Shown: positions 7,865 to 27,812 of the stretch, one piece after another | Numbering within the stretch: position 1 is the first letter of the stretch | Layout: the number at the start of each line of letters is the position of its first letter | Assembly (NCBI GenBank): GCA_016187515.1 | Contig: JACPJN010000006.1 | Coordinates: 64,856 to 128,855 of the forward strand | Source of the DNA: Candidatus Uhrbacteria bacterium | GTDB taxonomy: Bacteria; Patescibacteriota; Patescibacteriia; GWA2-47-26 | Direction: 5' to 3' | DNA: 64,000 nucleotides | The notes under the pieces: model-generated | Databases searched by the model: none | What the model was told of the DNA's origin: nothing | What the model saw: only the letters and a program-made list of their open reading frames with translations | Program-made: the position numbers and the translations under genes

Positions 7865-7993
7865 CCGTTGAACAATTGATTATTCGTGCACATTCGTCAG
7901 GCCGCCTCGTAATCGCCTCGCAGGAACACTGCGGTTTTGGCGGCCGTCTATTCGTGGATATTCGTGTAAACTGCGCAGGAGTTAATTCTTCAA
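7865..7993 (+). promoter_or_regulatory. Copy 1 of a conserved ~130-bp element containing four ATTCGTG direct repeats, a GGCCGCC...GGCGGCC stem and imperfect terminal inverted repeats.
   Basis: About 85% identical to 27683..27812. Both copies lie upstream of MopE-like lipoprotein genes, but in opposite orientation relative to the gene. Confidence 0.5.
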
Positions 7994-8011
7994 CACTCTC
8001 ATAATAGATCC

Positions 8012-8048
8012 GGGGGACGGAACGCACACGTATGTGCGTTCCGTCCCC
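8012..8048 (-). terminator. Perfect 19-bp inverted repeat (gggggacggaacgcacacg-ta-cgtgtgcgttccgtccccc). Putative terminator of the 9886->8067 operon.
   Basis: Lies 19 nt past the stop at 8067. The downstream U-run is weak. Confidence 0.4.
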
Positions 8049-8066
8049 GCGGTTGATTGCCTACTC

Positions 8067-9233
8067 CTATCGCGCCGGAGCCAGCGGCATGGGCACCGCC
8101 CACTCGCCGCGCACCTCCCCCCGCCTGCGAACCGGAGCCGGCTCCCCGAACGGGAACCGTCCCTTCAGAAACGCCCCGACCCCGAAGTCCATGGACTGCG
8201 GGTGGCTGACCTGGCCAGCCAGGTCCACTTCCTCGCGCCGCAGCCCGCCGACCAAGGCCTGGAGTTCCAGCCGGACTACGTCCGACCCGATCTCCAGTAC
8301 CGGCCCGGCCTGGACCAGATTGCTCTGTCCACGCTCGGACTCGTCATGGCCCCGACCGCACCAGCCCGCCAGACCGCCGATCGACACCGCGCTTTCGCGG
8401 GCGATCGGGGTCAGGGCTCCGGCCTGAATGCAGACAAACTTGTCCGCGTCCGCGTCCAGATCCAGGCCCCCGGCCGCCACTCGCAGGGTGGGGCTCCAGG
8501 TCGTGGACTTGAGATCCAAGTCCGCACCCAGCTGAACCCCGGCGCCGGACCCGAAGTCGTGAAACCCGACTCCGCCGGCACCCACGGTGAACGCGGACCG
8601 CTGGTCCTGGTCCCGCGGAGCACAGATCACGCCGGCCGGGCACTCCTCGCCAGAGCCGATCAAGAGTCGGCCGTGCGAGTCGTACGCGGCTGCTTCTGCC
8701 GCGGCCCGGTCCGCCTCCGCGAGTGCGGTGTCCACGACTTCCAGGGCCGCGCGGTCCTGGTCGGTCCGCTCCCGCGCCGCACGCAAGGCCCGGGCCCGCT
8801 CGGCGAGCTGGTCCTTGCGGGCCTGCAGCGCCTCCTGGTCCACCGGCAGACGATCCGCCGGCGCAGGACGCTCCGAAGCGGCCTTGAACACGATGCAGGG
8901 CGTATCCCCGCACCGGGCCGCGGCACACTCCTGGTAGATCCTGTCTTCCACCGTGCCGGGAGCGAACGCGAAGTTCTCGCCCGGACGACGGTTGAGCTCC
9001 ACGAGACGGGCACAGGTGGGGCCATCCACTGACCCGCGCACCTGCCTCCCGTTTTCCAACTGCCAGGCGCAAACCTGGCAAGCCGAACGAGTGGCCTCCG
9101 CCTGCTTGACCGCCTCGTCGCCGAAGCAGCGCAGACAGAACTTGCTCACGTCCCTCACGTCCCGCCCCTGCGCCACTGCCGTGAACGGCAGAGCGAGAAG
9201 GGCGAGAACGGAAAACACGCTCTTGATTCTCAT
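8067..9233 (-). CDS. Secreted protein with a central coiled-coil and a Gly-rich C-terminal domain; function unknown.
   Basis: Clear signal peptide MRIKSVFSVLALLALPFTAVAQG. RBS GAAGGAG sits upstream of the ATG at 9233. Overlapping GC-rich ORFs 8034..9032(+) and 8344..9405(-) lack such signals. Confidence 0.55.
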   Translation of the reverse strand: MRIKSVFSVLALLALPFTAVAQGRDVRDVSKFCLRCFGDEAVKQAEATRSACQVCAWQLENGRQVRGSVDGPTCARLVELNRRPGENFAFAPGTVEDRIYQECAAARCGDTPCIVFKAASERPAPADRLPVDQEALQARKDQLAERARALRAARERTDQDRAALEVVDTALAEADRAAAEAAAYDSHGRLLIGSGEECPAGVICAPRDQDQRSAFTVGAGGVGFHDFGSGAGVQLGADLDLKSTTWSPTLRVAAGGLDLDADADKFVCIQAGALTPIARESAVSIGGLAGWCGRGHDESERGQSNLVQAGPVLEIGSDVVRLELQALVGGLRREEVDLAGQVSHPQSMDFGVGAFLKGRFPFGEPAPVRRRGEVRGEWAVPMPLAPAR

Positions 9234-9265
9234 GGTTTTTCTCCTTCTCGGCTTTCGGTTTCGGT

Positions 9266-9886
9266 CTACTCGGCCTGAATGACCGTTGCCTCACCTCCGC
9301 CAGGCGGCGGAGGCGCAAGGTCGGTCTCGGCCGGAGCCGCTGCCCGCGCTGGGGCCGGCTTGGCTGCGCTGGCCGCCGGGGCCGCCGCCGCATTTGCCGT
9401 ATCACACGGCGGACACGGCTTGGCTACCTTCTTGGCCGCCGGCTTGGCCACCACGGGCCGGGGCTCGCGCAACTGTGCCAGGCGCGTCTCGAGCGCGTCG
9501 GGGGTGGTGAGCGGGAGGTACTCGTTCCTCCAGTGCCCCTGCTCGGACTTGTCGGTCTTCCACAGGCCCTTCAGGCAGTACTGGGGCACGGTGTGGCGCC
9601 CCTTCATGCCCTCGTGGGTGGACTCGACCTCGGCCAGGCGGAAGGCGCCGCCCGTGCAATCGAACGCTGCCAGGTTCTCCGGCGGCGCGGGCTCGGCCTT
9701 CTTGGCCGGGGCCGGCGTGGGCTCGGACGGCTTGGCCGCCGCCACCGGCTTGTTCTCCGGCGCCGCGGCCGGGGCCGGCTTGGCCTCGCTGTTGCTGCAG
9801 GCGCAGAATGCAAATCCAGCGCCCACGATCGCGGCCGTACCCGCAATGAGCACGGTCCACAGAATCGCTGCGATTCGTCGGTTCAT
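9266..9886 (-). CDS. Pro/Ala-rich lipoprotein; function unknown.
   Basis: Signal peptide with Cys (MNRRIAAILWTVLIAGTAAIVGAGFAFCAC). RBS AAGGAGAAG upstream of the ATG at 9886. Confidence 0.55.
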   Translation of the reverse strand: MNRRIAAILWTVLIAGTAAIVGAGFAFCACSNSEAKPAPAAAPENKPVAAAKPSEPTPAPAKKAEPAPPENLAAFDCTGGAFRLAEVESTHEGMKGRHTVPQYCLKGLWKTDKSEQGHWRNEYLPLTTPDALETRLAQLREPRPVVAKPAAKKVAKPCPPCDTANAAAAPAASAAKPAPARAAAPAETDLAPPPPGGGEATVIQAE

Positions 9887-10092
9887 CTGACTTCTCCTTG
9901 TTGTGCGCCTTGCGGCGCGGTTGTGCGCGCCAGGCGCCGTGTAAATGACTCAAAGATTCAATGAACAAAGGACTGGTCTAAGCCAGCTCTTGTCTGTCCT
10001 CCAAAAGTATTGGAATCCAGGCAAGATTCCGGCTGATTGGTTAGATTTTGCCCCAAAATGGCCTATTTGGGGCATTCTGGTCTTAACGCGTT

Positions 10093-10121
10093 AATATAAC
10101 ATAAATAGCGGGATTTGTCAA
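10093..10121 (-). promoter_or_regulatory. Promoter TTGACA-N17-TATATT for the 9886->8067 operon.
   Basis: Minus-strand cTTGACAaatcccgctatttatgtTATATT; the -35 box lies inside the terminator hairpin of the upstream kinase gene. Confidence 0.45.
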
Positions 10122-10150
10122 GTCCTTGATGGCTTGAACAAATCCCGCTT
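10108..10150 (-). terminator. Intrinsic terminator after the kinase gene.
   Basis: Stem agcgggatttgt...acaaatcccgct, followed by atttatgttat on the minus strand. Confidence 0.5.
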
Positions 10151-10158
10151 TCGTATCA

Positions 10159-11493
10159 CTACTCGGCTTCAAACACCGCGGCCTTGCCGCCTCCGGCCGG
10201 CGGCGGTGCGGGCACACGCTGTCCCGCACTCTGCCTGGACGCGGCCTGGCGCGCCCGCTGCCGCTTCACCGGCTTGAAAGCGGGCTTTTCCGTCTTGACC
10301 GGCTCCGGAGTTGCTGCCGGCGGCGGAGAAGACGGCGCAGCGGCCGCCACAGGAACAGTGGTCACCGGCGGGCTCGGCGGCAGGATCGGCTGAACCAGAG
10401 GGACCGACGGGCTGGACTGCAGCAGTACGATGAAAAGCAGTACTGCGAAAACGAAGACCAGCGCAAAACCCGCAAGTAGGGCCAATCCCTTCCGCCCCTT
10501 CCACCCGTAAGGATCGGTCGCGGTTACGGCACGCGCAACTGCGCCTCCCTGCGTAAACGCGCTAAGCGCGGCCCGGAACTCCTCGACCGAGGCGTACCGC
10601 TCCTCTGGTTGCCGCGCGATCGCCTTGAGAGCAACCGAGCTGACATCCTCGGAAACCGCCGCGCGCACTTCGTGAGGCGGCCGGGGCTGCTGCGTGGCCT
10701 GGCGGTGGAAGATCGTGAGCAGATCCTCGCGCCCAAACGGCGGCTCGCCCGTGAGCATCTCGTAGAGCACGGCGCCAAGCGAGTACACGTCCGCGCGGCA
10801 GTCCACGATCTTGCCCGCGGCCTGCTCCGGCGCCATGTAGGCCGGAGTGCCGATGATCAGCCCGGCCTGCGTGCGCGCGGCGCCCTGGCGGTTGACTTTC
10901 GCGATCCCGAAGTCAATCACCTTGACCAGGTCGCCTTCCGGCGAGTCGGTCAAGAAGATGTTGTCCGGCTTCAGGTCCCGATGGATGATGCCCCTGGCGT
11001 GCACGGCCTCAAGCGCGTGCGCCGCTTGCATGATGATTGCCAGCGCGCGATCCGAATCGATCGCGCCGGAAGCCAGCAGCCGCTGGAGCGACTGGCCTTC
11101 GAGCAGTTCCATCACGTAGAACGGATGGCGAACCCCGCCAATCTCGATTGCGCCCGCATCGGTGACCGAGACGACGTTGCCGTGGCGAATCGCGACGAGC
11201 AGTCGCGCCTCTTCCACAAAGCGCTCGGCAAACTGCGCTGCCGGAGTTGAACCGCTGGCCGGGTAGTAGATCTTGAGCGCGTGATGGCTCCCCAAGGTCA
11301 GATGTTCAACCTTGTAGACCTGGCCCATTCCGCCGTGATCCAGGGCGGTAAGCACCCGATAGCGGCCCTCCACGATCTGACCTACGAAAAGCAAGGGGGT
11401 GATGCCGGAGCCGGTAAAGGCGCCGGCGTCGGAGGCCGGCAGCGTCGGATCGCTGCCCAGGCCGTTTCCAACCGGTCCTTTTCCATTGCTCAT
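10159..11493 (-). CDS. Hanks-type Ser/Thr protein kinase with a C-terminal TM segment and a Pro-rich tail.
   Basis: Motifs GQIVEGRYRV...GGMGQVYK...ALKI...HRDLKPDNIFL...DFGIAK...GTPAYMAPE. The ATG at 11493 has RBS GGAAGGAG; the track start at 11601 is less likely. Confidence 0.8.
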   Translation of the reverse strand: MSNGKGPVGNGLGSDPTLPASDAGAFTGSGITPLLFVGQIVEGRYRVLTALDHGGMGQVYKVEHLTLGSHHALKIYYPASGSTPAAQFAERFVEEARLLVAIRHGNVVSVTDAGAIEIGGVRHPFYVMELLEGQSLQRLLASGAIDSDRALAIIMQAAHALEAVHARGIIHRDLKPDNIFLTDSPEGDLVKVIDFGIAKVNRQGAARTQAGLIIGTPAYMAPEQAAGKIVDCRADVYSLGAVLYEMLTGEPPFGREDLLTIFHRQATQQPRPPHEVRAAVSEDVSSVALKAIARQPEERYASVEEFRAALSAFTQGGAVARAVTATDPYGWKGRKGLALLAGFALVFVFAVLLFIVLLQSSPSVPLVQPILPPSPPVTTVPVAAAAPSSPPPAATPEPVKTEKPAFKPVKRQRARQAASRQSAGQRVPAPPPAGGGKAAVFEAE

Positions 11494-11627
11494 GGCAATG
11501 CTCCTTCCTGAAGATGTGGCTCGAGACATCGCTCGAGCAAGTTTTCGAGGAACAATCGCTGGGATTTTCAAGCCCGTCCAAACACCCTGTTTCACAACCA
11601 ACGCGGGCCTAAAATCACCAACAATTC

Positions 11628-11656
11628 AGTATACACAAAAAAGACCTGGTTGTCAA
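11628..11656 (-). promoter_or_regulatory. Promoter TTGACA-N17-TATACT for the kinase gene, embedded in a bidirectional hairpin.
   Basis: Minus-strand cCTTGACAaccaggtcttttttgtgTATACTg; hairpin gacctggttgtc-aagg-acaaccaggtc at 11643..11669. Confidence 0.45.
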
Positions 11657-12015
11657 GGACAACCAGGTCCCGTCGTTCTTTTTTCCCCATCCACACCAGA
11701 CGCGGCATGGCGGTGTGCCCGAGCAGCATTGGGGGAACGCCCCGACACGACAGCGCAGGCAGGCAGGACGGTTGGGGATCCTGCCAAGGAGACCCGCAGA
11801 CCCCACCATTCACCCAAGCGAGAGACGCCTGACGGCGATGTGGCAAGGCAATTTTGGGAGCGTCTGCAGTCCTCTGCGCAATTTATTTCCTCATAATCCT
11901 AAATTGCGCAGGGACGGAAGAGGACCCTTGTATTGCCGCCCACCCTGACGGGACACGCCGCGCCCTCTCCTTACCGCGAGTTCCGCAGCAAGGAAAGCGG
12001 GGCGGCGCACGGACG

Positions 12016-13161
12016 CTACCTCCCCCCGCGCATCCGCATCGCCTCGCAGTGCTTGAGCCGGCGCAGGACCTCGGCAAGCGCCGGACGGCGAACCGGGTCA
12101 AAGCTCGTCATCTCCCGCCACAGATCCTGCATCCAGACGCGCACCGCCGGGTGAAGATCCGGATGCGTACAGTCCGGAAGCGGCCGACGCGCCACCTCGA
12201 GAAGTTCTCCGGCATTCACGGAGTCCGGAAGCGCCTGCGACCCCTGCGACATCTCGCAGAGCATCCGACCCAAGGCAAAGGTGTCCGTGGCCTCACTCAC
12301 CGCGCTGCCGATCAGCTGCTCCGGCGCGCAATAGCGCGGCGTGGCTCCGGCCGCGCCGAATACCGCGGTCAAATCCGGAAGGTCCTCGGCATCGCGGACG
12401 AGCTCCTTGGCCACTCCCAGATCCAGGATCACGACCTCGAAAAACGCCTCGCCGGAGGCGGTCAGCGGGACCACCACCATGTTCTCCGGCTTCAGATCCC
12501 GATGCACCACCTGGGCGCGCAAGTGAAGACGCGTGACCGCGCGCGCGATCTTGGAAGCCGCAAAGTAGATGAAGCGCCAGGGCAGCCGCCAACCAGCCGG
12601 GGTAAATCCCAGCTCGGAAACCAGGCCCGGATTTCCCACGATGTCATAGAGCGAAAGGCCGGCGATAAAGCTCAACACCAGATGCGGAAGCGGTTCATCA
12701 GCGCGACCCAGATACACCGGGAAGCTCGGATCCCCGACCATTCCGGCCAGCAGCCGCCCTTCTTGCCGCAGCCGTTCGCGGCAATGCGCGGCAAGCTCCG
12801 CGCTGGCGCCCGGCGGCGGATTCAAGAGCTTGACCACTTGGAGCAATGGACGGATTCCGGGCTGGCGGCGCAGCTCGGCGACCTCGGAAGCGGTGAGAAT
12901 CTGGTAAACACCCGGATCCCTGGGAAGCGCCATCAGGTAGCTTTCGTCCAGGGTTCCGTCGGAAGCCGCCGTCGCGAGCGGCACGCAGACGTTAACTGCC
13001 GCGGTACCGCCCTGTCCCAGAGGCGCCCAGATGAGCAAGGGCTCACCCCAGGGGCGGACAATGGCCGTGCCCGGCTTCAGTGCGTCCGGATGAAGTCCGG
13101 AAACGCGCTGCAGATGCGGCGCCGGCCACATCCGGAACGCAACAGCATTGCTAGCAGACAT
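12016..13161 (-). CDS. Protein-kinase-like protein, probably a pseudokinase.
   Basis: Has HRDLKPENMVV and a Gly loop LGQGGTAAV, but no beta3 Lys (VNVCVPL) and DLG in place of DFG. Strong RBS CCAAGGAGG before the ATG at 13161. The plus ORF 11854..13260 is an artefact. Confidence 0.6.
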   Translation of the reverse strand: MSASNAVAFRMWPAPHLQRVSGLHPDALKPGTAIVRPWGEPLLIWAPLGQGGTAAVNVCVPLATAASDGTLDESYLMALPRDPGVYQILTASEVAELRRQPGIRPLLQVVKLLNPPPGASAELAAHCRERLRQEGRLLAGMVGDPSFPVYLGRADEPLPHLVLSFIAGLSLYDIVGNPGLVSELGFTPAGWRLPWRFIYFAASKIARAVTRLHLRAQVVHRDLKPENMVVVPLTASGEAFFEVVILDLGVAKELVRDAEDLPDLTAVFGAAGATPRYCAPEQLIGSAVSEATDTFALGRMLCEMSQGSQALPDSVNAGELLEVARRPLPDCTHPDLHPAVRVWMQDLWREMTSFDPVRRPALAEVLRRLKHCEAMRMRGGR

Positions 13162-18416: not shown

Positions 18417-18439
18417 ATGATTTACCTGATTTACCTGAT

Positions 18440-20284
18440 TTACTTTGTCAACTGTTGTTCAAACTCCTTTTTTGCCGCTTCAATCTCAAGGAGCTGCCTT
18501 GGGTCAGTCGTCACAATCTGATCTTCCGTATAGGAGGCGACCACTTTAATCGCCGCGTGCTTAGGCCCGGCAAAAAATATCCCTTCCCCCACGGCGGACT
18601 CCAGCAATAGATATTTTTCTCCCTCGGTAAGCATGAATGTCTTTTGAATGAGTTCAATGGCCGCCGGGGATTGTTTTAGGAGCAGCTGCAGGGCGGAGTT
18701 GGTCACAATCGCTTTGCCATAGTCATTCAGCAGGAAATCATTGACATCTTGAGTAATTGTCGTCACCCCCAAATAATACTTCCGCGCGCGTTTAACCAGG
18801 GCAAAAATGAATTTTGCCGAGTCCTCATGCTGCATCAGCCACCAGGCCTCGTCAATTACGAGAATCCGCTTTTTGCGCTCGGAACGCACAATGTTCCAGA
18901 GGTAGTTAACCAAGGTATAGATGGCAATCGGCCGCAGTTCATCTTCCAGATCGCGCACGGAAAACACCACCAGCTGATTGCGCATATCCACATTGGTGGG
19001 ATTATTAATCAGCCCGGAAAAAGTTCCGCTGGTGTATTTCTTCAAACGCTCGGCTAAAGAAGCGCCGCCTTCCATGCCTTCCAGAACCTCGAGCAGATCA
19101 GTCACGACCGGCGCCTCTACTTTGGCAAGATCGGCGGCGGCAGTAATATCTTTTTTCGCGTAGGTTTCCAAAAGCGCCCGATCCATCAGCGCGTCCTCTT
19201 CCGGCGTAAACTGGCTTAACATCAGGCGCAGCAGTCCTTTCAAGGTAATCACCGCCGAACGGATCACGTCTTCGGTCCGGGTTTCCTCCCCCACCGGACG
19301 CGGGAGGTCAAAAGGATTGACTTTGGCCGGCGAGGCCAGCGAGATATTCACATACGTGCCGCCGACCGCCTCGGCCAGGTGCTTATACTCGGCCTCCGGA
19401 TCAATGACAATGACGTCGGTCCCGAGCATTAAGGAACGCAGAATTTCCAGCTTGACCGAATAACTTTTACCGGCTCCGGAGGTCGCGAAAACCACCATAT
19501 TGGCGTTCTGCAGTGAAAAACGATCAAACAGGATCAGCGAGTTATTATGCCGGTTGATTCCATAGAGAATGCCGTTGTCCGAGGTAAGATCCGCGGAAAT
19601 AAACGGAAATGACGAAGCAATCGGGCTGGAATTCATGTTAAACGGCACCATCAGCTTATCCACGCCCAGGGGGATTGTGGCGTTAAAGCCCTGCTCGGCC
19701 TGAAAAAATACTTTTTTGGAGTAAATCAGCTTTGATCCAAACAGTTCTTCCACCATGATGGAATGTTTATCCAGCTCTTCGAGCGAGCGCGCGTAGACGG
19801 TAACATAGAGCGCGAACTGGAAAAATTTTTCAATCCCTTGCGTAAGATCGTCGCGCAGTTTTTCAACGTCGCGAAGCGCGGTCTCGCGGATCGGATCGCG
19901 CGGCGCGCCTTTTTCGGTGTCCCCGAGAATCTGGGCCTCCAGCGCTCCGGCTTTCTTCTTTAATTGTTTCAAAATAATGCTGGACGCGACCGGATAGAAA
20001 AACATGCCGATATCCAGCGAGCTGGCAAGATTAACAATCGGCGCAAACCACCCGACTGCGATATAGCGGGGATAAGCCACCACAAAAATCGTGCGCGTAA
20101 AAGTACCGCCCAATTTCACGTGCGCAGGAGTGATCTGCAAGGAGGCCGGAGCGACAATATCGCGAACCGATACTGCCCCGCGGCGGTAAATCCGCTCTTC
20201 TTCCAGAGTAATCAACTCTTCCCGCTCTTTTGCGGCAGAAACGCCTTTCGGCTCGGTCTCCTTGGTTTTTCTAAATAAAGACAT
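18440..20284 (-). CDS. VirB4/TrbE/CagE-family conjugation ATPase, C-terminal ATPase portion.
   Basis: Walker A FATSGAGKS; ...ILVIDEAWWLM...; C-terminus typical of VirB4. Confidence 0.65.
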   Translation of the reverse strand: MSLFRKTKETEPKGVSAAKEREELITLEEERIYRRGAVSVRDIVAPASLQITPAHVKLGGTFTRTIFVVAYPRYIAVGWFAPIVNLASSLDIGMFFYPVASSIILKQLKKKAGALEAQILGDTEKGAPRDPIRETALRDVEKLRDDLTQGIEKFFQFALYVTVYARSLEELDKHSIMVEELFGSKLIYSKKVFFQAEQGFNATIPLGVDKLMVPFNMNSSPIASSFPFISADLTSDNGILYGINRHNNSLILFDRFSLQNANMVVFATSGAGKSYSVKLEILRSLMLGTDVIVIDPEAEYKHLAEAVGGTYVNISLASPAKVNPFDLPRPVGEETRTEDVIRSAVITLKGLLRLMLSQFTPEEDALMDRALLETYAKKDITAAADLAKVEAPVVTDLLEVLEGMEGGASLAERLKKYTSGTFSGLINNPTNVDMRNQLVVFSVRDLEDELRPIAIYTLVNYLWNIVRSERKKRILVIDEAWWLMQHEDSAKFIFALVKRARKYYLGVTTITQDVNDFLLNDYGKAIVTNSALQLLLKQSPAAIELIQKTFMLTEGEKYLLLESAVGEGIFFAGPKHAAIKVVASYTEDQIVTTDPRQLLEIEAAKKEFEQQLTK

Positions 20285-20989: not shown

Positions 20990-21421
20990 TCATACTTCCT
21001 CGGCGCTGTATACTCCGCCGGTGTCCACTTGCAAAGCAATCTCGGCCAGCCGCGAAGCGGTTAGCGGCGTTTTGCGCGGCGCGACTTTGGCGGGCGGGGA
21101 GGGGGGTAACTTTAGCGACTGCTTCAGAATCGCGTTCGGAGTGGTCTTGTCCCATATTTGAAGATTGGGCGAACGCCAGGTCTGCAGGATGTTCAGCAGG
21201 AAAAAGTGAAACGGCTGTCCGTTGATGCGCACAAAAGCCAAGACGATCGAACCGATAAAAACCAGCCCGGCAAATATAATAAAGTAGGTAAAGGCGAAAA
21301 TTTTGTAAAAAGTAAAAATAAGCAGCGCGCCCGCCAGCATAATAATAAACTGCCGCGTGGTAACCGGGCCGATAATCTTGTCTTCAACATCGATGAATTG
21401 GGGGACGGTGAATTGATTCAT
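20990..21421 (-). CDS. PrgI/VirB3-like small two-TM conjugation protein.
   Basis: N-terminal motif VPQFIDVEDKIIGPVTTRQFI followed by two TM helices. It is positioned immediately upstream of VirB4, as in Gram-positive T4SS. Confidence 0.45.
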   Translation of the reverse strand: MNQFTVPQFIDVEDKIIGPVTTRQFIIMLAGALLIFTFYKIFAFTYFIIFAGLVFIGSIVLAFVRINGQPFHFFLLNILQTWRSPNLQIWDKTTPNAILKQSLKLPPSPPAKVAPRKTPLTASRLAEIALQVDTGGVYSAEEV

Positions 21422-21424
21422 AGA

Positions 21425-21535
21425 TACCGCGGAACTTATACAGAACTAGAACGGATCTTACACTGACGTTTCCGCATATGTTCCGCTATGGTTCCGTATA
21501 TGTTCAGTGTCAGAAACGGAGTTTCTGATTCAACT
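21425..21535 (+). promoter_or_regulatory. Copy (rearranged, inverted) of the 90-bp CGGAAC/GTTCCG upstream element family.
   Basis: Shares gaacatatacggaa, cagtgtaag.tccgt and the start-proximal ATAAGTTCCG with 47771..47870 and 52401..52500. Confidence 0.4.
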
Positions 21536-22817
21536 CCATTATAGCATAGAATTCCTCGCGGGTAAGGGTAGCTTCGCCGCTCGCCAAGGTTTCGGGAGCA
21601 ACTTTCTGGTAAAGCGCCTCTCCGGTAATCTTCGCGTATAACCCGTAAAGCGGCGATTTTTTCCAGGCCGCGATCGCCGCCAGCCGCCGCGCCAGGGATT
21701 CCTGCCCGATAAACTCGATTTTACCCGAAATTTTAGTCACCCTTTCATCAACGGTGCCGGCTAGTTTTCTAAAATCCTCCAGTGTCAAACTTTGCAATTC
21801 GTCAACCGGCCCCAGAAGTTTCGGCGCCGGGCGGATGTCGGTAACTTTCGAGGGCGTAGGGCGTAGGGCGTAGGGCGTAGGGCGGAGAGTCGGCAAAGCT
21901 TCTGTTTTCTGTCTTCTGTTTTCTGTTTTCTGGATTGGCGGCGGGGGTGGGGGTGGAATAACCGCCGGAAGAGAAGCCGGCAACCGCGCGGGTTTGGGGG
22001 GTTGGGAAATGACTGGCGCTGGCGGGGGTGGCGGTTTTGGAATGGTAATTTTGGGTTTGGAACTTACGCCAGTAAGGCGTCGATACCGTTCTTCTAATTC
22101 TTCTTCCTCTTTCTTTTTTAGCAACTGCACTTGCTTGGCTTGCGCTTCATATTGCGCTCGCCTGCGTTCCTGCCGCCGCTTCTCCTCCATGGCTTTCCAT
22201 TTCGCCTGAAATTCTTTAAATGCTTTTTCAATAATCTCCACCACCAAAGTTGTATCTAATTCGCTAATCTCTAATCCGCCAATTCGCCTATTCCGCGTGA
22301 GCATCTCCCGCGTCTCTGTCGCATCCCGCACCTCGCGCAGCCGCGCCGACACAATCATTCGAAATCTTTTACTTAACACCGGATCGCCTAACCAATCAAC
22401 ATTTTGAATTTTTTCAGCCTGAGGCTGATCCGCCTTTGGCGGAAATTTTACATTTTTCATTACCTGATCAATCAATTCCTCCAGCTCCACCCGCAACGGA
22501 TGTTCTTCGTGGGAAACCGGCGCACTTGCTATCGGTTTGGATATTGGAGATTGTCCGCCCAAGGCGGACCCGCCTCGGGCGGGGATATTGGATATTGTTT
22601 CGAGTTTCGTGCTTCGGATTTCGGATTTCTCTCCCATCTTCTCATACTCCTCCCTCGTCACCCCCTTGGGCAACTCTTTCATAACTAGCCCCTGACCCCT
22701 AGCCCCTAGCCCCTTTTCCTCGTACGGCAAAAGCTCCTCCCCTTTAAGGATATACCATTTTCCGTCCGTTCCTTTGACTAAAATCTCGTCCATATTTTTG
22801 TACAAATCCTTATCCAC
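21510..22817 (-). CDS. Hypothetical coiled-coil/Pro-rich protein carrying two heptamer tracts and a GC-palindrome insertion.
   Basis: gggcgta x4-5 (21852..21885) and tctgttt x4-5 (21901..21932) encode ...QKTENRRQKTEALPTLRPTPYALRPTPS... Confidence 0.5.
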   Translation of the reverse strand: MDKDLYKNMDEILVKGTDGKWYILKGEELLPYEEKGLGARGQGLVMKELPKGVTREEYEKMGEKSEIRSTKLETISNIPARGGSALGGQSPISKPIASAPVSHEEHPLRVELEELIDQVMKNVKFPPKADQPQAEKIQNVDWLGDPVLSKRFRMIVSARLREVRDATETREMLTRNRRIGGLEISELDTTLVVEIIEKAFKEFQAKWKAMEEKRRQERRRAQYEAQAKQVQLLKKKEEEELEERYRRLTGVSSKPKITIPKPPPPPAPVISQPPKPARLPASLPAVIPPPPPPPIQKTENRRQKTEALPTLRPTPYALRPTPSKVTDIRPAPKLLGPVDELQSLTLEDFRKLAGTVDERVTKISGKIEFIGQESLARRLAAIAAWKKSPLYGLYAKITGEALYQKVAPETLASGEATLTREEFYAIMELNQKLRF

Positions 22818-22879
22818 ACCCCGCCTCTTGATAAATTATACAAGGTGCCAGATGATTGATCAAAGTATTCCGAACTTGA

Positions 22880-22975: not shown

Positions 22976-22989
22976 CCCACCCTCTCTTG

Positions 22990-23100
22990 ACAAATTATTT
23001 CAGTATGGTATAGTATTATTGTGATAATGCTCTGGCGTATCCCCCTCGGGGATAGCGTCAGATGACGAACCTCTCCCCACCGCAAGGTGGGGGGATTCTT
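22990..23100 (+). ncRNA. Candidate small RNA unit 2: promoter TTGACA-N16-TATAGT, then two hairpins, the second (ccccacc-gcaa-ggtgggg + ttcttttt) an intrinsic terminator.
   Basis: Its 5' part resembles unit 1. Confidence 0.3.
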
Positions 23101-23114
23101 TTTATCATGAACTG

Positions 23115-23633
23115 TCAAACAAGTTCAATTTGATCACGCAATTTCTTCAAATTTATAAACTTAGCACGCTGTAAGAGTTCTCGAGAAATGTGATCTTTCA
23201 CTGACATTACAATAATCCGCTTGCCGTGCGACTTTACACGATCAACCACTGGCGCAAAATCACTATCGCCCGATAAAAGGATAGCGGTATCATATTCAGT
23301 AATATGATCCAGTATATCCATCGTGAGCTCCACATCAAAGTCACCCTTCCACTCATAAATACCATGAGCAATACGGATTTTCTTGACTGGTTTGGTACGA
23401 ACAATATAACCGTTCGTTTGCAGCATACGGAGAAAACGCTCCTGCTGTGGTCGCATTGCATCATGAGCGGTGTAGACAAACATTTTGCTCGCATTGCACT
23501 CTTTAGTAAAGTATTCCCGTAATCTGACGTACGATATTCGCCACTTCAATGATCGCTGAGAATAAAATATATTCGCGGCGTCAATAAACACATATACTCG
23601 CCCCTTGACAAAATTTCTGATCATAGTTTCCAT
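23115..23633 (-). CDS. NYN/LabA-like domain protein (predicted RNase).
   Basis: Motifs VYVFIDAANIFY and LLSGDSDFAPVV. Confidence 0.6.
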   Translation of the reverse strand: METMIRNFVKGRVYVFIDAANIFYSQRSLKWRISYVRLREYFTKECNASKMFVYTAHDAMRPQQERFLRMLQTNGYIVRTKPVKKIRIAHGIYEWKGDFDVELTMDILDHITEYDTAILLSGDSDFAPVVDRVKSHGKRIIVMSVKDHISRELLQRAKFINLKKLRDQIELV

Positions 23634-24874
23634 CTGAACATGCCTGACTGCTGATCGTAGTACGCCATATCAAAGTACTCCGGCTTGCCGTTTTGCTTCA
23701 AGATATTGCCCAGGCGCACGGCCACCGCCGCGGCCTCGGATTCATTCATCCGCATCCGGCGAACCAGTACAAAGCGCAAAAATTTACCGAGCGACACCGG
23801 TGAAGTCGGCGCCAGCGCAAACGCCGGCGCCTCCTCCGGTCTCCCCTCCTGCCGCAGATATTTTTCAAACTGCTCGCGCACCGGATTTTGCTCTTCAAGA
23901 AGCTTCAATAGCCACCCTTGACGCGCAAGCACAACCAGTGCTCCCAGCACCAGCGCGCGATCATGCGAGGCGCCCGGAAGCGGAAAAAGGTTATCATATA
24001 AGACCCGCGCTGTTTTTGAAAATTCACCTTGGCCTATCTCGTTCACTCGCTTCGCAGTAGATATAAGCTCATTATTAAATATTTCTACTAATTCTTTTAG
24101 TCCGGCTAATCCTTGTCCTTGGGGAGGAATGGCGCGCGGCGGTAGAGAGGCAGGCGATGCGGATGCTGAAATTATCCTCCGCTCTTTAAGCGCAACAGTT
24201 GGGAAACGTATAAAATCGTATACCTCCATTATTTTTAACAGTATTTGGCGATCCTGCGGATTAAGGCGTCTCGCGTTTGTTCCTTCATTAAAATATCGAA
24301 GCCGCTCAAGACTTCCGCGCATCGTAAAGGCCGGGAAAAACTGATCATAGTCCTTCAGCCAATCCCCCGCTGTCGGCGGCTTCGCCTGGAGTCCGCTACC
24401 AACAACAAGCGGATCACTGCCCACTGGCTCGCTGTTATTTTGAAGAGTTTGCATCAACCTCTTGCGCATCGCACCGTGAGCGACTCCATCTTCGAACGCA
24501 GAAAACCGTTCAGTAAGAAGACCAATTAAGTTGATGTCATCTTTTACCGCTGAAAGAAGGTGTTTTTCTAACAATTCCTCGACTTCTTCGGTTTTAATCA
24601 CAGCAAACGCCGCGAATTTCAAACGCACAATCAACCCTTGCGCCTGCGCATATTCGTCTGGCGCCTCTATTTCAAACTGGCTAAACTTCTTCAATAATTC
24701 TTCTAGCGCGCGAAATAGATCCTGCGCTTCTCCCGGTTCCGCTTCCTCCACTACTCTATCCACAAGCGCAGTTAGCGCTTTGATAGTTGCAGGATCACGA
24801 AAATTCGTTGCGTCAATCCTGCTGACCTCGTCCAGCACCGGAGTAACTCCAAAGATCGGGTGAAGTTCAAGCAT
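23621..24874 (-). CDS. Hypothetical protein, 417 aa.
   Basis: Long ORF embedded in the T4SS-like operon; no recognisable motifs. Confidence 0.45.
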   Translation of the reverse strand: MLELHPIFGVTPVLDEVSRIDATNFRDPATIKALTALVDRVVEEAEPGEAQDLFRALEELLKKFSQFEIEAPDEYAQAQGLIVRLKFAAFAVIKTEEVEELLEKHLLSAVKDDINLIGLLTERFSAFEDGVAHGAMRKRLMQTLQNNSEPVGSDPLVVGSGLQAKPPTAGDWLKDYDQFFPAFTMRGSLERLRYFNEGTNARRLNPQDRQILLKIMEVYDFIRFPTVALKERRIISASASPASLPPRAIPPQGQGLAGLKELVEIFNNELISTAKRVNEIGQGEFSKTARVLYDNLFPLPGASHDRALVLGALVVLARQGWLLKLLEEQNPVREQFEKYLRQEGRPEEAPAFALAPTSPVSLGKFLRFVLVRRMRMNESEAAAVAVRLGNILKQNGKPEYFDMAYYDQQSGMFRWKL

Positions 24875-24877
24875 AAG

Positions 24878-27661
24878 TTATTTTGAAATATCACTGAAAA
24901 TATCTCCTAAATCACGCCGCACCTCATCTTCTGATAACCCGGCCCTAGAAAGAGAATCGCGTATTTCCGTAACAGATGCACCCTCGCTTGGCAATGCCGT
25001 ATCAAGTTTTACGAGCTTCTTGGAAAGTTCGCCAAATTCCACGCCCATTCCTCTTTCTAACCCGGAGATCTCGCTATTCAGATCTTTAATGAGTTTTCTA
25101 ATGGCACGAAATATCGGTTGATTTTCAACAAACCCGGGCCGTGCAATATCGCGCATGACCGCACCCATTTGCGGCTTAATCGAGGTCTGAATAATCGTGG
25201 ATTGCTGTATGATCTGCTGGGGAGCAGCGCCAGCTCCACCGCCAGTCGGCGCTGGACCAACGGGGGCAGGTTCTGATGGAGCAGCTGGAGCAGCTGGGGC
25301 AGGAGTTGGGGCAGCACCGCCAGCAGGCGCTCCGCCTCCTGCCGGAGTTCCTCCAGCAGGAGTTCCACCCGATTCCTCTTCCCTCGGCGGCTGTAATTTA
25401 CCTTTGTATTCGATTGTCTTGATAAGATTTCCTTCCTGGTCCACGATATTAAATTTTTTCTGACTAAGAATCTCTTTCATCGTCTTGTTGGTAATTGCCC
25501 CATACATGGCAAATACATAATCGCTGTTTATCTCGTCATTAAATTTAGAAACGTAATCGGCCATGGCCGTATTTCCTTGAACCTGGGGGTTTCCTCTTGG
25601 ATCTGCGGTTTCATGAATTTCCGTGCCTAAACTCCAAGCTGGCACTCGCCTTTGTATGCGGGTCGGCTCTCTTGCTGCTGATGGCGCCATTGCATGAATC
25701 ATTGCTGTCTCTGCCTCACCTATTGTACCGTAAGTATCTGCAGAATCCTCCGCGTCAATCCTCCCTTCTTTATTGGGGGCTTGTCGTAGCGCATGAAATA
25801 CATGCGGCGCGGCGCCAGTACGATCGCGATCGCCAAGCTTACCAAACTCTTCGAGCGCGTAGTCCTTAAGCCATTCCTTGTTTCCTACTTCATATTTGCC
25901 CTTCTCTGGATTATACCGAGCATGTCCAAGATATTCCCAGTGTTTCGTCTGCTTCCCCGGTTCTTCAAGAGCAGTAATCATGCGCAGTTGAAATTGCCAG
26001 CGATCAGCATCCGTGGTTGCCATATCTATTCCTTTACCGCTGCCCACTCCGGCGCCCGTCATATAATCCATAAGTAATTCCTGCAGCATTTCTTTATTGT
26101 AAAATGTGCCATCCGTATAGCCATACTTCTGACGGCCAAGATCCACTAATTTCTGGCGCAATACCGGCATGCGGGCAATATCATCTAAAAATCCTCCGTG
26201 TGCGGCAACCGAGACAATCGCCGCGCGCGCGCGTTCACCTTCCGGTCCGCCAAGGGTCTCGAGTTCCACCGCTTTTCTCATGACTGCTTCTTTGGACAAG
26301 AACGAAAAATCTTTAGCATATTGACCTACCAGCCCATGCTCCGCGACCTCGCGCAACGGAAGCCGCCGCTTTCCACGAGTAAAAATAATATTCGACTCTT
26401 CTTCTGCTTCAGCCGATGCGATTTTCCGTGATTCCTCCAGCAAAACTTCCCCCCGTTTCAAAAAACCTTTCCAGCCAGTAGGGGTGGCGTACTTGACTGC
26501 GCGGCGTAATACTCCTCCGCCGGGTTTTGTTGAAAAATCCAGCAGTGCTCGCTCTGCCCGATGTAATCCCAACCCTGCCCCAAACGCAACCGGCGCGGCC
26601 AGGGCTTTCCCGCCGAACCTCAAGGCGCGGGTAGCGGCGCTCTTGGCTTTCCCCGCCACGCCCGCAATGGCCCCGCCCATTTGCTGGGACATTTGCACTC
26701 CGGCCAAAAGCATAAAGATCCCGATAATGTAGGTAATGAACGCATCCGTCGAGCCCACTCCCGAGCACGCGGTCTGGATAACCGTGTCCTCCGCCGGTTT
26801 ACCCTCCGGGAAAAGCGTGCTGGCCGACTCTCCGCCGCCTACCGTAATAAGCGCGAGCCAAATAAAGAACGCCAGCATTGGCCCGGCCATGGTTTGATTT
26901 TTAAATTCTTCCCACCACTGCGCGTAATACTTTTGTCCTTGCGGAAACGTGCCGGCTAAAAATGCCACCGGCGAAAGAATCGTCAGCAGCCAAAGCATAA
27001 TAATGCGCAGAGCGAGCACCGCGAAAATCACAAAGATCGTGACAATCGAGACCAGCACCATGCCAAAGGCCAAAGCATAAGCGCCAAACACTTCCCAAAT
27101 CCCAATCTCCTGACATCCGGAAGAAGTAAAACCGCCCTCGGCCTTTTTTAAAATATCCGCGATTTTAAAAAGATTGGCAAAATTTCCGCCAGCCGCGGCT
27201 TTAAAACCATTGACAAAGGTGAGCATGATCACCTGGGAAAAATCAATAAACACGCCCATGATGGTGCGTGAAAAATTCACGAGCACTGCCAAAATGAGCA
27301 GTTTAGGAAGGAGCTTTTTGTAGTGATATTCTTCTTGGCCCAAAATCGTGCCAAAGGCAATCAGGAGGAGCACCACGATAAAAAACATGTTGGCTACGTC
27401 GCGGACAATCACCCAACCCGCGACGACCGGCCGCGCGTTTACAAAATCCGTGTACTGGGCAATCCAAATCACGGCCTGCACCAGCATGGTTAACACCCCG
27501 CCTAAAAATCTGGTAAAGACCTCGAGGATCCGGGTCAAGATTCGCAACACATCATCACCAAGTCCAAAACTCTCCGCCGCGCGAATTGGCCAAGCCAAAA
27601 CCAAAACCCCCAGACCAAACAGGACTAGGCCGGACAAAATAATCTTCTTGCGCTTGGCCAT
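24878..27661 (-). CDS. Large polytopic membrane protein, putatively VirB6/TrbL-like, with an Ala/Pro/Gly-rich linker.
   Basis: Signal plus about 8 TM in the N-terminal 330 aa, then a long soluble region; located next to VirB4. Confidence 0.4.
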   Translation of the reverse strand: MAKRKKIILSGLVLFGLGVLVLAWPIRAAESFGLGDDVLRILTRILEVFTRFLGGVLTMLVQAVIWIAQYTDFVNARPVVAGWVIVRDVANMFFIVVLLLIAFGTILGQEEYHYKKLLPKLLILAVLVNFSRTIMGVFIDFSQVIMLTFVNGFKAAAGGNFANLFKIADILKKAEGGFTSSGCQEIGIWEVFGAYALAFGMVLVSIVTIFVIFAVLALRIIMLWLLTILSPVAFLAGTFPQGQKYYAQWWEEFKNQTMAGPMLAFFIWLALITVGGGESASTLFPEGKPAEDTVIQTACSGVGSTDAFITYIIGIFMLLAGVQMSQQMGGAIAGVAGKAKSAATRALRFGGKALAAPVAFGAGLGLHRAERALLDFSTKPGGGVLRRAVKYATPTGWKGFLKRGEVLLEESRKIASAEAEEESNIIFTRGKRRLPLREVAEHGLVGQYAKDFSFLSKEAVMRKAVELETLGGPEGERARAAIVSVAAHGGFLDDIARMPVLRQKLVDLGRQKYGYTDGTFYNKEMLQELLMDYMTGAGVGSGKGIDMATTDADRWQFQLRMITALEEPGKQTKHWEYLGHARYNPEKGKYEVGNKEWLKDYALEEFGKLGDRDRTGAAPHVFHALRQAPNKEGRIDAEDSADTYGTIGEAETAMIHAMAPSAAREPTRIQRRVPAWSLGTEIHETADPRGNPQVQGNTAMADYVSKFNDEINSDYVFAMYGAITNKTMKEILSQKKFNIVDQEGNLIKTIEYKGKLQPPREEESGGTPAGGTPAGGGAPAGGAAPTPAPAAPAAPSEPAPVGPAPTGGGAGAAPQQIIQQSTIIQTSIKPQMGAVMRDIARPGFVENQPIFRAIRKLIKDLNSEISGLERGMGVEFGELSKKLVKLDTALPSEGASVTEIRDSLSRAGLSEDEVRRDLGDIFSDISK

Positions 27662-27682
27662 AGTATTGCTAATAGTATGAGA

Positions 27683-27812
27683 CCGTTGAACAATTGATTA
27701 TTCGTGTTCATTCGTCAGGCCGCCTGGCCAGGGCAACGCAGGAAACCAGCGATTCCGGCGGCCGTCTATTCGTGAATATTCGTGTGAATCTGCGCCGGTG
27801 TTAATTCTTCGA
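27683..27812 (+). promoter_or_regulatory. Copy 2 of the ATTCGTG-repeat element, about 30 bp upstream of the -35 of the MopE-like gene.
   Basis: See the entry for 7865..7993. Confidence 0.5.

What the first reader, a model, noticed from the sequence alone, without database searches (positions are those of the whole stretch)
7865..27812. Conserved 130-bp ATTCGTG-repeat element upstream of two MopE-like lipoprotein paralogs, in opposite orientations
7865..7993 and 27683..27812 are about 85% identical. Each contains four ATTCGTG direct repeats, a conserved GGCCGCC...GGCGGCC stem around a variable core, and imperfect 12-bp terminal inverted repeats (GTTGAACAATTGA / TCGAAGAATTAAC). Each sits just upstream of the predicted sigma70-like promoter of a MopE-like Cys-rich lipoprotein gene (5579..7696 on the minus strand, 27897..28580 on the plus strand). 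Relative to its gene, the element therefore has opposite orientation at the two loci. It could be an orientation-independent transcription-factor binding array co-regulating the paralogs, an invertible ON/OFF switch, or a MITE.
Basis: seen in the sequence. Interest (0 to 1): 0.65.

Follow-up and report, generated by a model that had tools for sequence, protein, structure and literature searches.

The report
Orphan CACGAAT-box repeat in Uhrbacteria
The two 150-bp elements are real copies of a small non-coding intergenic repeat, probably not a switch for the neighbouring MopE-like genes, and their phased CACGAAT boxes are the same boxes that in many phyla flank a tiny nuclease gene of unknown function (GxxExxY).

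Summary
A (7856..8005) and B (27673..27826) are about 84% identical and lie on the same strand. Each has two 10-bp-phased box pairs (three ATTCGTG plus one ATTCGTC) around a conserved GGCCGCC/GGCGGCC stem. Their terminal inverted repeats are about 23 bp, longer than reported.

The regulatory reading is weak. The two MopE-like proteins share only a Cys-rich motif, and a third MopE-motif gene lacks the element. B lies in a divergent region, 11 nt from the start codon of a TrbL-like gene. No recombinase is nearby.

The box pattern hit at least 119 loci in many bacterial phyla and in archaea. There the arrays are about 93% intergenic and show no orientation preference. Every GxxExxY (PF13366, PD-(D/E)XK) gene I examined in the metagenome-derived loci sits between box arrays, usually inverted. 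Seven of eight such genes on plasmids of cultured organisms also have boxed flanks. The box word changes as the protein diverges. Gene-less palindromic units also occur, and one is in this window (2304..2400).

Best reading: A and B are MITE/REP-like non-autonomous members of this box-repeat family. The link to GxxExxY acting in trans is inferred, because no such gene lies in the 64 kb. I found no description of this association in the papers searched.

The parts
7856..8005 (.). Element A, full extent (about 150 bp), between the terminator hairpin of the 388-aa gene (8067..9233, -) and the MopE-like gene 5579..7696 (-)
27673..27826 (.). Element B, full extent (about 154 bp), in the divergent region between the TrbL-like gene 24878..27661 (-) and the MopE-like gene 27897..28580 (+). 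Its left end is 11 nt from the ATG at 27661.
7856..7879 (+). Left terminal inverted repeat of A (ATACTGGGGCCGTTGAACAATTGA)
7980..8005 (-). Right terminal inverted repeat of A. Read on the minus strand it is TATTATGAGAGTGTTGAAGAATTAAC.
27673..27697 (+). Left terminal inverted repeat of B (TAGTATGAGACCGTTGAACAATTGA)
27800..27825 (-). Right terminal inverted repeat of B. Read on the minus strand it is TATACTGAAACCATCGAAGAATTAAC. Its TATACT is the -10 of a predicted minus-strand promoter.
7882..7898 (-). Box pair 1 of A (ATTCGTG cac ATTCGTC on +, which is GACGAAT/CACGAAT on -), 10-bp period
7950..7966 (-). Box pair 2 of A (ATTCGTG gat ATTCGTG)
27700..27716 (-). Box pair 1 of B (ATTCGTG ttc ATTCGTC)
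27768..27784 (-). Box pair 2 of B (ATTCGTG aat ATTCGTG)
7900..7945 (.). Central GC hairpin of A (GGCCGCC - 32 nt - GGCGGCC). The stem is invariant and the core is not conserved.
27718..27763 (.). Central GC hairpin of B
2304..2400 (.). Third box cluster in the window: 4 forward then 4 inverted (N)NCGAAT boxes (TACGAAT, TGCGAAT, CACGAAT, ATCGAAT | ATTCGTA, ATTCGTG, ATTCGTA, ATTCGTA). It is a gene-less palindromic unit at the 3' end of the gene 2343..3641 (-).
27820..27849 (-). Predicted minus-strand promoter TTGTCA-18-TATACT (10/12, TG-extended). Its -35 is in flanking DNA and its -10 is in the TIR of B. It would make almost all of B the 5' leader of the TrbL-like gene.
27843..27871 (+). Predicted promoter of the MopE-like gene 27897..28580 (TTGACA-17-TAGGAT), downstream of B, so B is not in that transcript
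24878..27661 (-). 927-aa TrbL/VirB6-like membrane protein, first gene of a T4SS-like cluster. It is the gene nearest to B.
5579..7696 (-). 705-aa protein with repeated MopE Cys-rich motifs, downstream of A on the minus strand
27897..28580 (+). 227-aa MopE-motif protein to the right of B

Best explanation
A and B are two copies of a roughly 150-bp non-coding, TIR-bounded intergenic repeat in a Candidatus Uhrbacteria (CPR) genome. The core of each is two pairs of CACGAAT boxes (read on the minus strand), phased at 10 bp, around a GC hairpin.

These boxes are the hallmark of a very widespread family of prokaryotic intergenic repeats. In many phyla, short arrays of 9-10-bp-phased boxes flank the small PD-(D/E)XK gene 'GxxExxY' (PF13366/TIGR04256), usually with forward boxes upstream and inverted boxes downstream. 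The same boxes also occur as gene-less palindromic units and as tandem arrays.

Shown:
- The repeat and its anatomy.
- The family-wide link between boxes and the gene.
- The box word changing as the protein diverges.
- The intergenic, orientation-neutral placement of the arrays.

Inferred:
- The boxes are the recognition sites of a GxxExxY-type protein, and elements such as A and B are non-autonomous relatives, analogous to MITEs and their transposon or to REPs and their RAYT. They would be spread or kept in trans.
- Their position next to MopE-like genes is incidental.
- As a side effect, B occupies the leader and -10 region of the TrbL-like gene and may affect its expression.
For: Anatomy and significance of the repeat.

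Distribution of the box pattern:
They come from Bacteroidota, Chloroflexota, Planctomycetota, Verrucomicrobiota, Desulfobacterota, Acidobacteriota, Omnitrophota, CPR, Gammaproteobacteria and Methanotrichaceae archaea. My rough estimate of the chance expectation is about 0.002 hits.
- These loci hold 1433 boxes in 812 kb against about 99 expected, mostly at periods of 10, 9 or 8 bp.
- 146 of 157 arrays are intergenic. Their flanking genes are co-directional in 55 cases, convergent in 17 and divergent in 7. The box strand relative to co-directional neighbours is the same in 19, opposite in 21 and mixed in 15.

Link to GxxExxY:
- The only neighbour family that recurs is GxxExxY.
- All 10 such genes in the box-selected loci lie between box arrays, 9 of them with forward boxes upstream and inverted boxes downstream.
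- All 6 loci picked without regard to boxes (five through a GxxExxY protein, L156 through the TrbL-like ortholog) also have boxed flanks.
- 7 of 8 GxxExxY genes on plasmids or chromids of cultured organisms have phased boxes of other words.
- The box word tracks protein divergence.

Signs of a dynamic, repeat-like element:
- Strains differ in the number of tandem box units.
- Gene-less palindromic units are scattered in L037, L076, L066 and L027, and one lies in this window at 2304..2400.
- Short-read contigs from many runs stop inside A and B, although A and B share no exact run longer than 24 nt. This points to more copies or to local heterogeneity.
Against: - No GxxExxY gene lies in the 64-kb window, and the rest of the genome could not be read.
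- The three CPR GxxExxY loci sampled use other box words: CACAGAT, CACTAAT, and a degenerate form.
- The boxes in A and B are all direct, not inverted.
- The 23-bp TIRs and the GC hairpin of A and B were found nowhere else.
- No target-site duplication is recognisable.
- No empty site or extra full copy was seen.
- The genome-wide scan had no permuted-pattern control on the same collection. The viral-contig controls were uninformative (1 hit against 0 and 0).
- Pure decamer arrays among the hits could partly be ordinary microsatellites.
- One hit (L075) abuts an Illumina adapter.
Confidence: 0.6

Rival explanations
1. The phased direct repeats are an orientation-independent binding array for a transcription factor, for example an OmpR/PhoB-type response regulator, that co-regulates the adjacent genes.
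For: 7-bp direct repeats at a 10-bp period are typical of winged-helix response-regulator sites (established knowledge). Both copies lie within 100 bp of a putative promoter. B overlaps the leader and -10 region of the TrbL-like gene.
Against: - The two MopE-like proteins share only a motif, and a third MopE-motif gene lacks the element.
- Distance and orientation relative to the promoters differ between the two copies.
- No regulator gene was found nearby.
- Family-wide, the same boxes form arrays of up to 35 copies, avoid divergent (promoter-rich) spacers and show no strand preference.
- The nearest TrbL-like ortholog has no such element.
Confidence: 0.12
2. The element is a structured RNA (an sRNA or a cis-acting leader), folded on the + strand into a long outer helix that encloses the boxes and the GC hairpin.
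For: The + strand consensus fold is -34.75 kcal/mol against -19.55 for the minus strand. All five one-sided differences between A and B in the 18-bp outer helix stay paired as G-U on the + strand. My count of independent events is 7 G-U against 1 A-C, p about 0.035.
Against: - Single-sequence folds are no better than shuffles (z from -1.65 to +0.5).
- There are no compensatory pairs, and the hairpin core is not conserved.
- No Rfam family matches.
- Transcription of the + strand is not supported in either context: at A it would be antisense to both neighbours, and at B the + promoter lies downstream of the element.
- G·T-tolerant strand asymmetry would equally fit a single-stranded DNA hairpin.
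Confidence: 0.1
3. It is a plain segmental duplication of a 150-bp stretch of spacer DNA with no mobility or function. The match of its boxes to the widespread family is coincidental.
For: Only two full copies were seen. There is no target-site duplication and no cognate gene in the window.
Against: - Homology ends sharply at inverted-repeat ends.
- A third, palindromic cluster of the same boxes lies at 2304..2400.
- A heptamer plus its phasing matching a pan-phylum family by chance is unlikely.
- The contig breaks suggest more copies.
Confidence: 0.1
4. It is an invertible ON/OFF promoter switch flanked by inverted repeats.
For: It has inverted repeats at its ends and a weak internal minus-strand promoter-like site (TTAACA-18-AATATT). 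The neighbouring genes encode surface proteins.
Against: - No recombinase or invertase domain was found within about 6 kb.
- Both copies have the same orientation.
- The internal promoter is weak in B and weaker in A.
- No alternative orientation appears in the available contigs.
Confidence: 0.03

Closest known systems
REP/BIME repeats and their RAYT (TnpA_REP) genes
   Same: Short intergenic repeats far outnumber a small dedicated nuclease-type gene. That gene is itself flanked by inverted copies of the repeat. The repeats sit mostly between co-directional or convergent genes and form composite and tandem arrangements.
   Different: The associated protein is a roughly 125-aa PD-(D/E)XK fold (PF13366), not an HUH/Y1 transposase. 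The repeat unit is a 7-bp box phased at 9-10 bp rather than a roughly 35-nt imperfect palindrome with GTAG. The same box word recurs across many phyla. The gene is always co-oriented with its neighbours inside gene strings.
Bacterial MITEs (for example Correia/NEMIS, RUP, ERIC, Nezha)
   Same: About 150 bp, non-coding, with terminal inverted repeats, inserted in spacers close to start codons. Such elements can supply promoter parts; here the -10 of a predicted hybrid promoter lies in the TIR of B.
   Different: No target-site duplication was found, and no IS transposase with matching ends is known. The interior holds phased direct boxes shared with an unrelated gene cassette. Only two full copies were seen.
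Direct-repeat operator arrays of OmpR/PhoB-family regulators, and plasmid iterons or ParR centromeres
   Same: 7-bp direct repeats with helical (10-bp) phasing, arranged in pairs.
   Different: No regulon logic, no fixed position relative to promoters, no partner gene nearby. The same word occurs in long arrays in hundreds of unrelated genomes.
Invertible promoter elements (fimS, Bacteroides invertons)
   Same: A short segment flanked by inverted repeats in front of surface-protein genes.
   Different: No recombinase, no evidence of two orientations, and no strong internal promoter.
STRR short tandemly repeated heptamers of cyanobacteria
   Same: Heptamer-based tandem arrays in intergenic DNA. 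This window is full of 7-11-bp arrays.
   Different: STRRs are contiguous heptamers without spacers and without a known associated gene.

Membership tests
MITE | Small non-coding element | tested here: met
   150-154 bp, entirely in spacers between annotated genes
MITE | Terminal inverted repeats | tested here: met
   About 23 bp. The best cross-pair matches 19 of 23, and the pairs within one copy are weaker.
MITE | Target-site duplication | tested here: not met
   The flanks of A (…CTCGCC | GATCCGG…) and of B (…TTGCTAA | CCACGC…) show no direct repeat. A TA dinucleotide cannot be excluded.
MITE | Many dispersed copies, or presence/absence polymorphism | tested here: inconclusive
   Two full copies in 64 kb. 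Contig breaks in many runs hint at more. The specific version is absent from JGI metagenomes. The nearest ortholog locus lacks it, but at only 52% protein identity.
MITE | Autonomous partner with the same ends | not testable with these tools
No locus fetched here has these TIRs.
REP/RAYT system | Repeats flank a dedicated nuclease gene in inverted orientation | tested here: met
   Met for the box family at large: GxxExxY genes between box arrays, mostly inverted. Not met inside this window.
REP/RAYT system | The associated protein is an HUH/Y1 transposase (PF01797) | tested here: not met
   The protein is PF13366/TIGR04256, with a PD-(D/E)XK fold.
REP/RAYT system | A roughly 35-nt imperfect palindrome with a conserved GTAG | tested here: not met
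   The units are 7-bp boxes at a 9-10-bp period.
   Two pairs per element at a 10-bp period
   A and B lie in spacers.
   The boxes of A and B are all direct. The separate cluster at 2304..2400 does have the 4 forward + 4 inverted arrangement. Direct tandem arrays are common elsewhere in the family.
   None in the window. A related CPR genome has one inside the same T4SS-like cluster.
Invertible promoter switch | Site-specific recombinase encoded nearby | tested here: not met
   Pfam scans of 18 ORFs around A and B found no recombinase, invertase or transposase domain.
Invertible promoter switch | Both orientations present in a population | not testable with these tools
Response-regulator operator | Fixed position and orientation relative to the -35 of the regulated promoters | tested here: not met
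   About 32 bp from the -35 at B against about 95 bp at A, in opposite orientation
Any Rfam RNA family | A covariance-model match | tested here: not met
   No hit at gathering score or at E<=10 on either element

The most novel reading that the evidence does not exclude
Phased heptamer boxes (CACGAAT and lineage-specific variants) are the cognate recognition sites of the roughly 125-aa GxxExxY PD-(D/E)XK proteins. Together they would form a selfish or domesticated cassette class, not described in the papers searched here, present in many bacterial phyla and in archaea. Its features are a gene embedded co-directionally inside operons, flanked by box arrays, and large numbers of gene-less derivatives. 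This would be a PD-(D/E)XK counterpart of the REP-RAYT relationship. The Uhrbacteria elements A and B, and the cluster at 2304..2400, would be its non-autonomous members.
Probability: 0.45. Interest if true: 0.75.

Novelty: new variant of a known kind. Interest (0 to 1): 0.6.

Why it matters
For this window, the result removes a tempting but unsupported story of a switch or regulator for the MopE-like lipoproteins.

More broadly, PF13366/TIGR04256 is a very large family: 7976 proteins with E<=1e-10 among the 8000 candidates scored. The 2012 superfamily survey lists its function as 'Unknown' (PMC3424549). Three observations give that family a concrete, testable hypothesis, namely that the protein recognises its own flanking boxes:
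- Its genes sit between phased box arrays.
- The box word changes as the protein diverges.
- Thousands of orphan arrays exist.

The same hypothesis would explain a class of intergenic repeats that break short-read assemblies and generate spurious ORFs (such as '...TNGHEWTRM...') in many phyla. If the boxes also act at the RNA level inside operons, they would matter for operon expression too.

Tried and rejected
- Rfam at gathering score and at E<=10 gave nothing on either element.
- The JGI metagenome scan for the hairpin-bearing version returned only two chance hits inside a coding region.
- The viral contig scan gave 1 hit, against 0 and 0 for two permuted controls, which is too few to be informative.
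- The search for related loci failed with the GxxExxY alignment because no conserved stretch was available. With a single protein on viral contigs it found no relatives.
- A sequence search of the PDB with the GxxExxY profile gave only non-significant hits, T7 endonuclease I at E 0.5-0.9.
- Foldseek gave only weak PD-(D/E)XK matches with TM 0.4-0.58, so no specific activity can be assigned.
- Literature searches for CACGAAT, ATTCGTG, GxxExxY, PDDEXK_3, PF13366 and TIGR04256 found no description of the repeats.
- I considered DnaA boxes, IHF sites, sigma-54 promoters, the hammerhead core (CUGANGA), T-loops and integron attC sites by eye and dropped each for lack of fit.
- I considered a minus-strand leader RNA because a -10-like hexamer sits 7 nt outside the box-proximal end in both copies. 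That hexamer turned out to be part of the TIR, and only B has a matching -35.
Full report
**1. The observation**

Both elements are in the sequence as described. They are co-linear on the + strand, not inverted relative to each other, and 84.4% identical over 128 nt. An extended alignment and a two-sequence profile place the limits of homology at 7856..8005 (A) and 27673..27826 (B). No other full copy exists in the 64 kb.

Each copy has three exact ATTCGTG boxes and one ATTCGTC. They form two pairs with a 10-bp period, and the pairs are 68 bp apart. ATTCGTGNNNATTCGT occurs four times against 0.11 expected, whereas the bare heptamer is not over-represented in the window (12 against 8.7).

The 7-bp GGCCGCC/GGCGGCC stem is invariant, and the 32 nt it encloses are poorly conserved. 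The left end of B matches the reverse complement of the right end of A at 19 of 23 positions. No target-site duplication is visible.

**2. Context in the window**

The window comes from a Candidatus Uhrbacteria (CPR) MAG. The 927-aa protein next to B is NCBI HYW17_01590. The same genome occurs in Logan assemblies of runs SRR121133xx.

A lies between the terminator hairpin of a 388-aa gene and the 705-aa MopE-motif gene, both on the minus strand.

B fills almost the whole divergent spacer between the 927-aa TrbL/VirB6-like gene and the 227-aa MopE-motif gene. The TrbL-like gene is on the minus strand and is the first gene of a PrgI/TraC/VirB4 T4SS-like cluster. B's left end is 11 nt from that gene's ATG.

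- The + strand promoter of the 227-aa gene (TTGACA-17-TAGGAT) lies downstream of B.
- A strong minus-strand promoter-like site (TTGTCA-18-TATACT, TG-extended) has its -35 in the flank and its -10 inside B's right TIR. B would then be the 5' leader of the TrbL-like mRNA.
- At A, the equivalent TIR hexamer (TATTAT) has no -35 partner, and no promoter passes the scan.

The two MopE-like proteins share only the repeated Cys-rich motif (37% identity over 73 aa). A third MopE-motif gene at 30392..31279 has no element. The neighbouring 29152 gene, which has no Pfam match and is unrelated to the 227-aa protein, shares a different upstream repeat with 30392. None of the 18 ORFs scanned around A and B has a recombinase, invertase or transposase domain.

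The MopE co-regulation and inversion readings therefore have nothing beyond proximity in their favour. The 'opposite orientation' depends on which neighbour of B one chooses.

**3. The boxes belong to a very widespread family**

I took a pattern from A and B, read on the minus strand: CACGAATNNNCACGAAT-N40-70-ACGAATNNNCACGAAT, with 27 specified bases. From the stated size of the collection I estimate that about 0.002 chance hits would be expected. The hits come from Bacteroidota, Chloroflexota, Planctomycetota, Verrucomicrobiota, Desulfobacterota, Acidobacteriota, Omnitrophota, Cloacimonadota, CPR, Gammaproteobacteria, Clostridia and Methanotrichaceae archaea.

In these loci:
- The boxes form tandem decamers (CACGAATnnn).
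- They form composite units of 2-3 boxes plus a 30-70-bp spacer that often holds a hairpin, frequently in tandem.
- They form palindromic units of three forward boxes, a loop and three inverted boxes.
- There are 1433 boxes in 812 kb against about 99 expected, with spacings of 10, 9, 8 and 20 bp.
- 146 of 157 arrays are outside long ORFs.
- Their flanking genes are co-directional (55), convergent (17) or divergent (7).
- The box strand shows no preference relative to co-directional neighbours: 19 same, 21 opposite, 15 mixed.

This is the behaviour of REP- or MITE-like repeats, not of promoter elements. It makes the orientation issue at A and B unremarkable.

**4. The associated gene**

The only protein family that recurs near the arrays is a roughly 125-aa protein. 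It is the 'GxxExxY protein' (TIGR04256) and PDDEXK_3 (PF13366).

All ten such genes in the box-selected loci sit between box arrays. Nine have gcCACGAATnnCACGAATnnnCACGAAT, as one to eleven tandem units, upstream, and the inverted ATTCGTGnnnATTCGTGnnATTCGTGgc downstream. The tenth (L055) carries inverted-type boxes on both sides.

Because those loci were chosen by their boxes, I sampled genes independently:
- Three proteins taken only by similarity (P0012, P0074, P0006) show the same CACGAAT flanks.
- Strain variants of one locus differ in the number of tandem units: 2, 2, 3 and 5 upstream and 2, 3, 4 and 2 downstream.
- The closest available relative of the window's own T4SS-like cluster (52% identity) carries a GxxExxY gene inside that cluster, flanked by CACAGAT x3 and ATCTGTG x3.
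- Another CPR genome has CACTAAT/CACGAAT boxes and inverted ATTAGTG. A third is degenerate.
- Of eight GxxExxY genes on plasmids or chromids of cultured organisms, seven have phased boxes in their flanks, with other words. These are CACGGAT, CGCGGAT, CACAGAGGA (x3 and inverted x3 in Bacteroides finegoldii), CACAGAG, a CGCGAAG-like word (inside fabD-fabG of Sphingomonas) and ACAAATC. In two of the seven the flanking boxes are direct rather than inverted.

The box word tracks protein divergence from the CACGAAT group:

| Score against the CACGAAT-group profile | Box word |
|---|---|
| 167-187 bits | CACGAAT |
| 147 bits | CACGGAT |
| 106-122 bits | CACTAAT, CACAGAT, CACGGAT, CGCGGAT, CACAGAG, a degenerate GCGAAT-like word |
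| 84-93 bits | CGCGAAG, ACAAATC |

The one plasmid locus with no visible boxes (L172) scores 128 bits.

In every locus where a neighbour could be called, the gene is co-oriented with it (both neighbours in all but L073). It often sits inside conserved operons: preT-preA, ftsI-murE, tsf-frr, fabD-fabG, radA.

An AlphaFold model is confident (pLDDT 94.6). It resembles PD-(D/E)XK nucleases only weakly: lambda-exonuclease-like enzymes, Cas4, MGME1, the splicing endonuclease and Hjc. The 2012 survey of the superfamily lists the function of PDDEXK_3 as unknown (PMC3424549). I found no paper that mentions these repeats.

**5. Back to the window**

The window contains no GxxExxY gene. It does contain a third cluster of the same boxes at 2304..2400: four forward and four inverted (N)NCGAAT boxes. 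This is the gene-less palindromic arrangement seen in other genomes. One such cluster was observed against 0.05 expected.

A and B differ from it in having only direct boxes, a GC hairpin and their own TIRs. These features were found in no other locus, so A and B are a lineage-specific composite.

Short-read contigs from many runs end at 7973 (inside A) and at 27705/27707 (inside B), although A and B share no exact run longer than 24 nt. With 31-mer graphs (my understanding of how these assemblies were built), this points to further near-identical copies, or to heterogeneity, in the population.

**6. RNA or DNA?**

Single-sequence folds are not better than shuffles. RNAalifold gives a much better consensus on the + strand (-34.75 against -19.55 kcal/mol). 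It includes an 18-bp outer helix in which all five A/B differences stay paired through G-U. There are no compensatory changes. This asymmetry is suggestive (about p 0.03 by my count), but:
- It rests on two sequences.
- It conflicts with the transcriptional context.
- It would equally suit a single-stranded DNA hairpin.

I rank a dedicated RNA function as a minor rival.

**7. Verdict**

The regulatory and switch interpretations are not supported. A MITE-like nature is the best fit.

The most likely account (0.6) is that A and B are non-autonomous members of a pan-phylum family of phased-box repeats whose gene-bearing form is the GxxExxY cassette.

Shown:
- The anatomy of the repeat.
- The family-wide association between boxes and gene.
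- The change of box word with protein divergence.

Inferred:
- The protein recognises the boxes and moves or maintains them.

For the window itself the element is a fairly ordinary small repeat, with a possible side effect on the TrbL-like promoter and leader. The interest lies in the family it points to, which appears undescribed and gives a testable function for a very large protein family of unknown role.

Noticed in passing
window 3640..3760, 18418..18445, 43398..43480, 51103..51168: A second box-repeat family in the same genome: AAGTAAATC / GATTTACyT boxes at a 9-bp period. Three sites are palindromic arrays (3 boxes, a loop, 3 inverted boxes) and one is a direct triplet in the 24-bp spacer between two T4SS-cluster genes. 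The architecture mirrors the gene-less CACGAAT units of other genomes.
   Followed up: partly
window 21403..21505, 47772..47830, 52404..52460: A third box family (GCGGAACTTAT-like, about 11-bp period) with inverted partners (ttccgc...).
   Followed up: no
whole window (for example 934..970, 4362..4392, 21851..21932, 50373..50403, 58864..58896, 59026..59061): Dozens of perfect or near-perfect 7-9-bp tandem arrays of 4-5 copies in intergenic DNA. They resemble the STRR heptamers of cyanobacteria and are unusual for a small CPR genome.
   Followed up: no
window 1502..1571, 2148..2188, 41594..41640, 48509..48597, 59286..59377, 62471..62511, 63671..63771: A family of C-rich/G-rich hairpin repeats (CTCCCCTT..AAGGGGAGG, then GGGGAGGGG) in both orientations. 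A similar hairpin forms the spacer between CACGAAT boxes in an Anaerolineales MAG (L002).
   Followed up: no
window 28900..31650: Tandem Cys-rich secreted-protein genes (29152..29949, 30392..31279 and the next) share 86-94% identical upstream regions of about 250 bp, including promoter and RBS. This is a local gene-plus-promoter amplification unrelated to the ATTCGTG element (families D4, D6, D13).
   Followed up: partly
window 27843..27849: The palindromic TTGACAA/TTGTCAA serves as the -35 for both predicted divergent promoters, of the MopE-like gene and of the TrbL-like gene.
   Followed up: no
window 2186..2309 (minus strand): A 41-codon ORF that resembles, by eye, the N-terminus of a glycosyltransferase. 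It is cut off by a stop just before the C/G-rich hairpin repeats, next to the palindromic box cluster, and may be a gene disrupted by repeat insertion.
   Followed up: no
L143, L144, L145, L148 (upstream and downstream of the GxxExxY gene at 6001..6375): Strain-level copy-number variation of the 39-bp and 36-bp box units between ftsI and murE in one Chloroflexota population.
   Followed up: partly
GxxExxY loci L027..L176: In every locus where a neighbour could be called, the GxxExxY gene is co-oriented with it, often inside conserved operons (preT-preA, ftsI-murE, tsf-frr, fabD-fabG). This suggests expression by read-through.
   Followed up: partly
L133 3234..3548: A 23S_rRNA_IVP (four-helix-bundle) mini-gene is likewise inserted co-directionally in an operon. 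It is flanked by an 11-bp perfect inverted repeat (ATAGTTATGAG) and may be a parallel class of operon-embedded mini-cassette.
   Followed up: no
L075 1500..1620: An Illumina TruSeq adapter fragment (AGACGTGTGCTCTTCCGATCT) directly abuts a CACGAATAGA decamer array in a public MAG contig. This is an assembly artefact, and some pure decamer hits should be treated with caution.
   Followed up: no
L010, L022, L031, L092 and others: Box arrays are read by ORF callers as spurious peptides ('...TNGHEWTRMDTNGHEW...'), sometimes fused to the N-termini of real genes. This is a likely source of mis-annotation in many MAGs.
   Followed up: no
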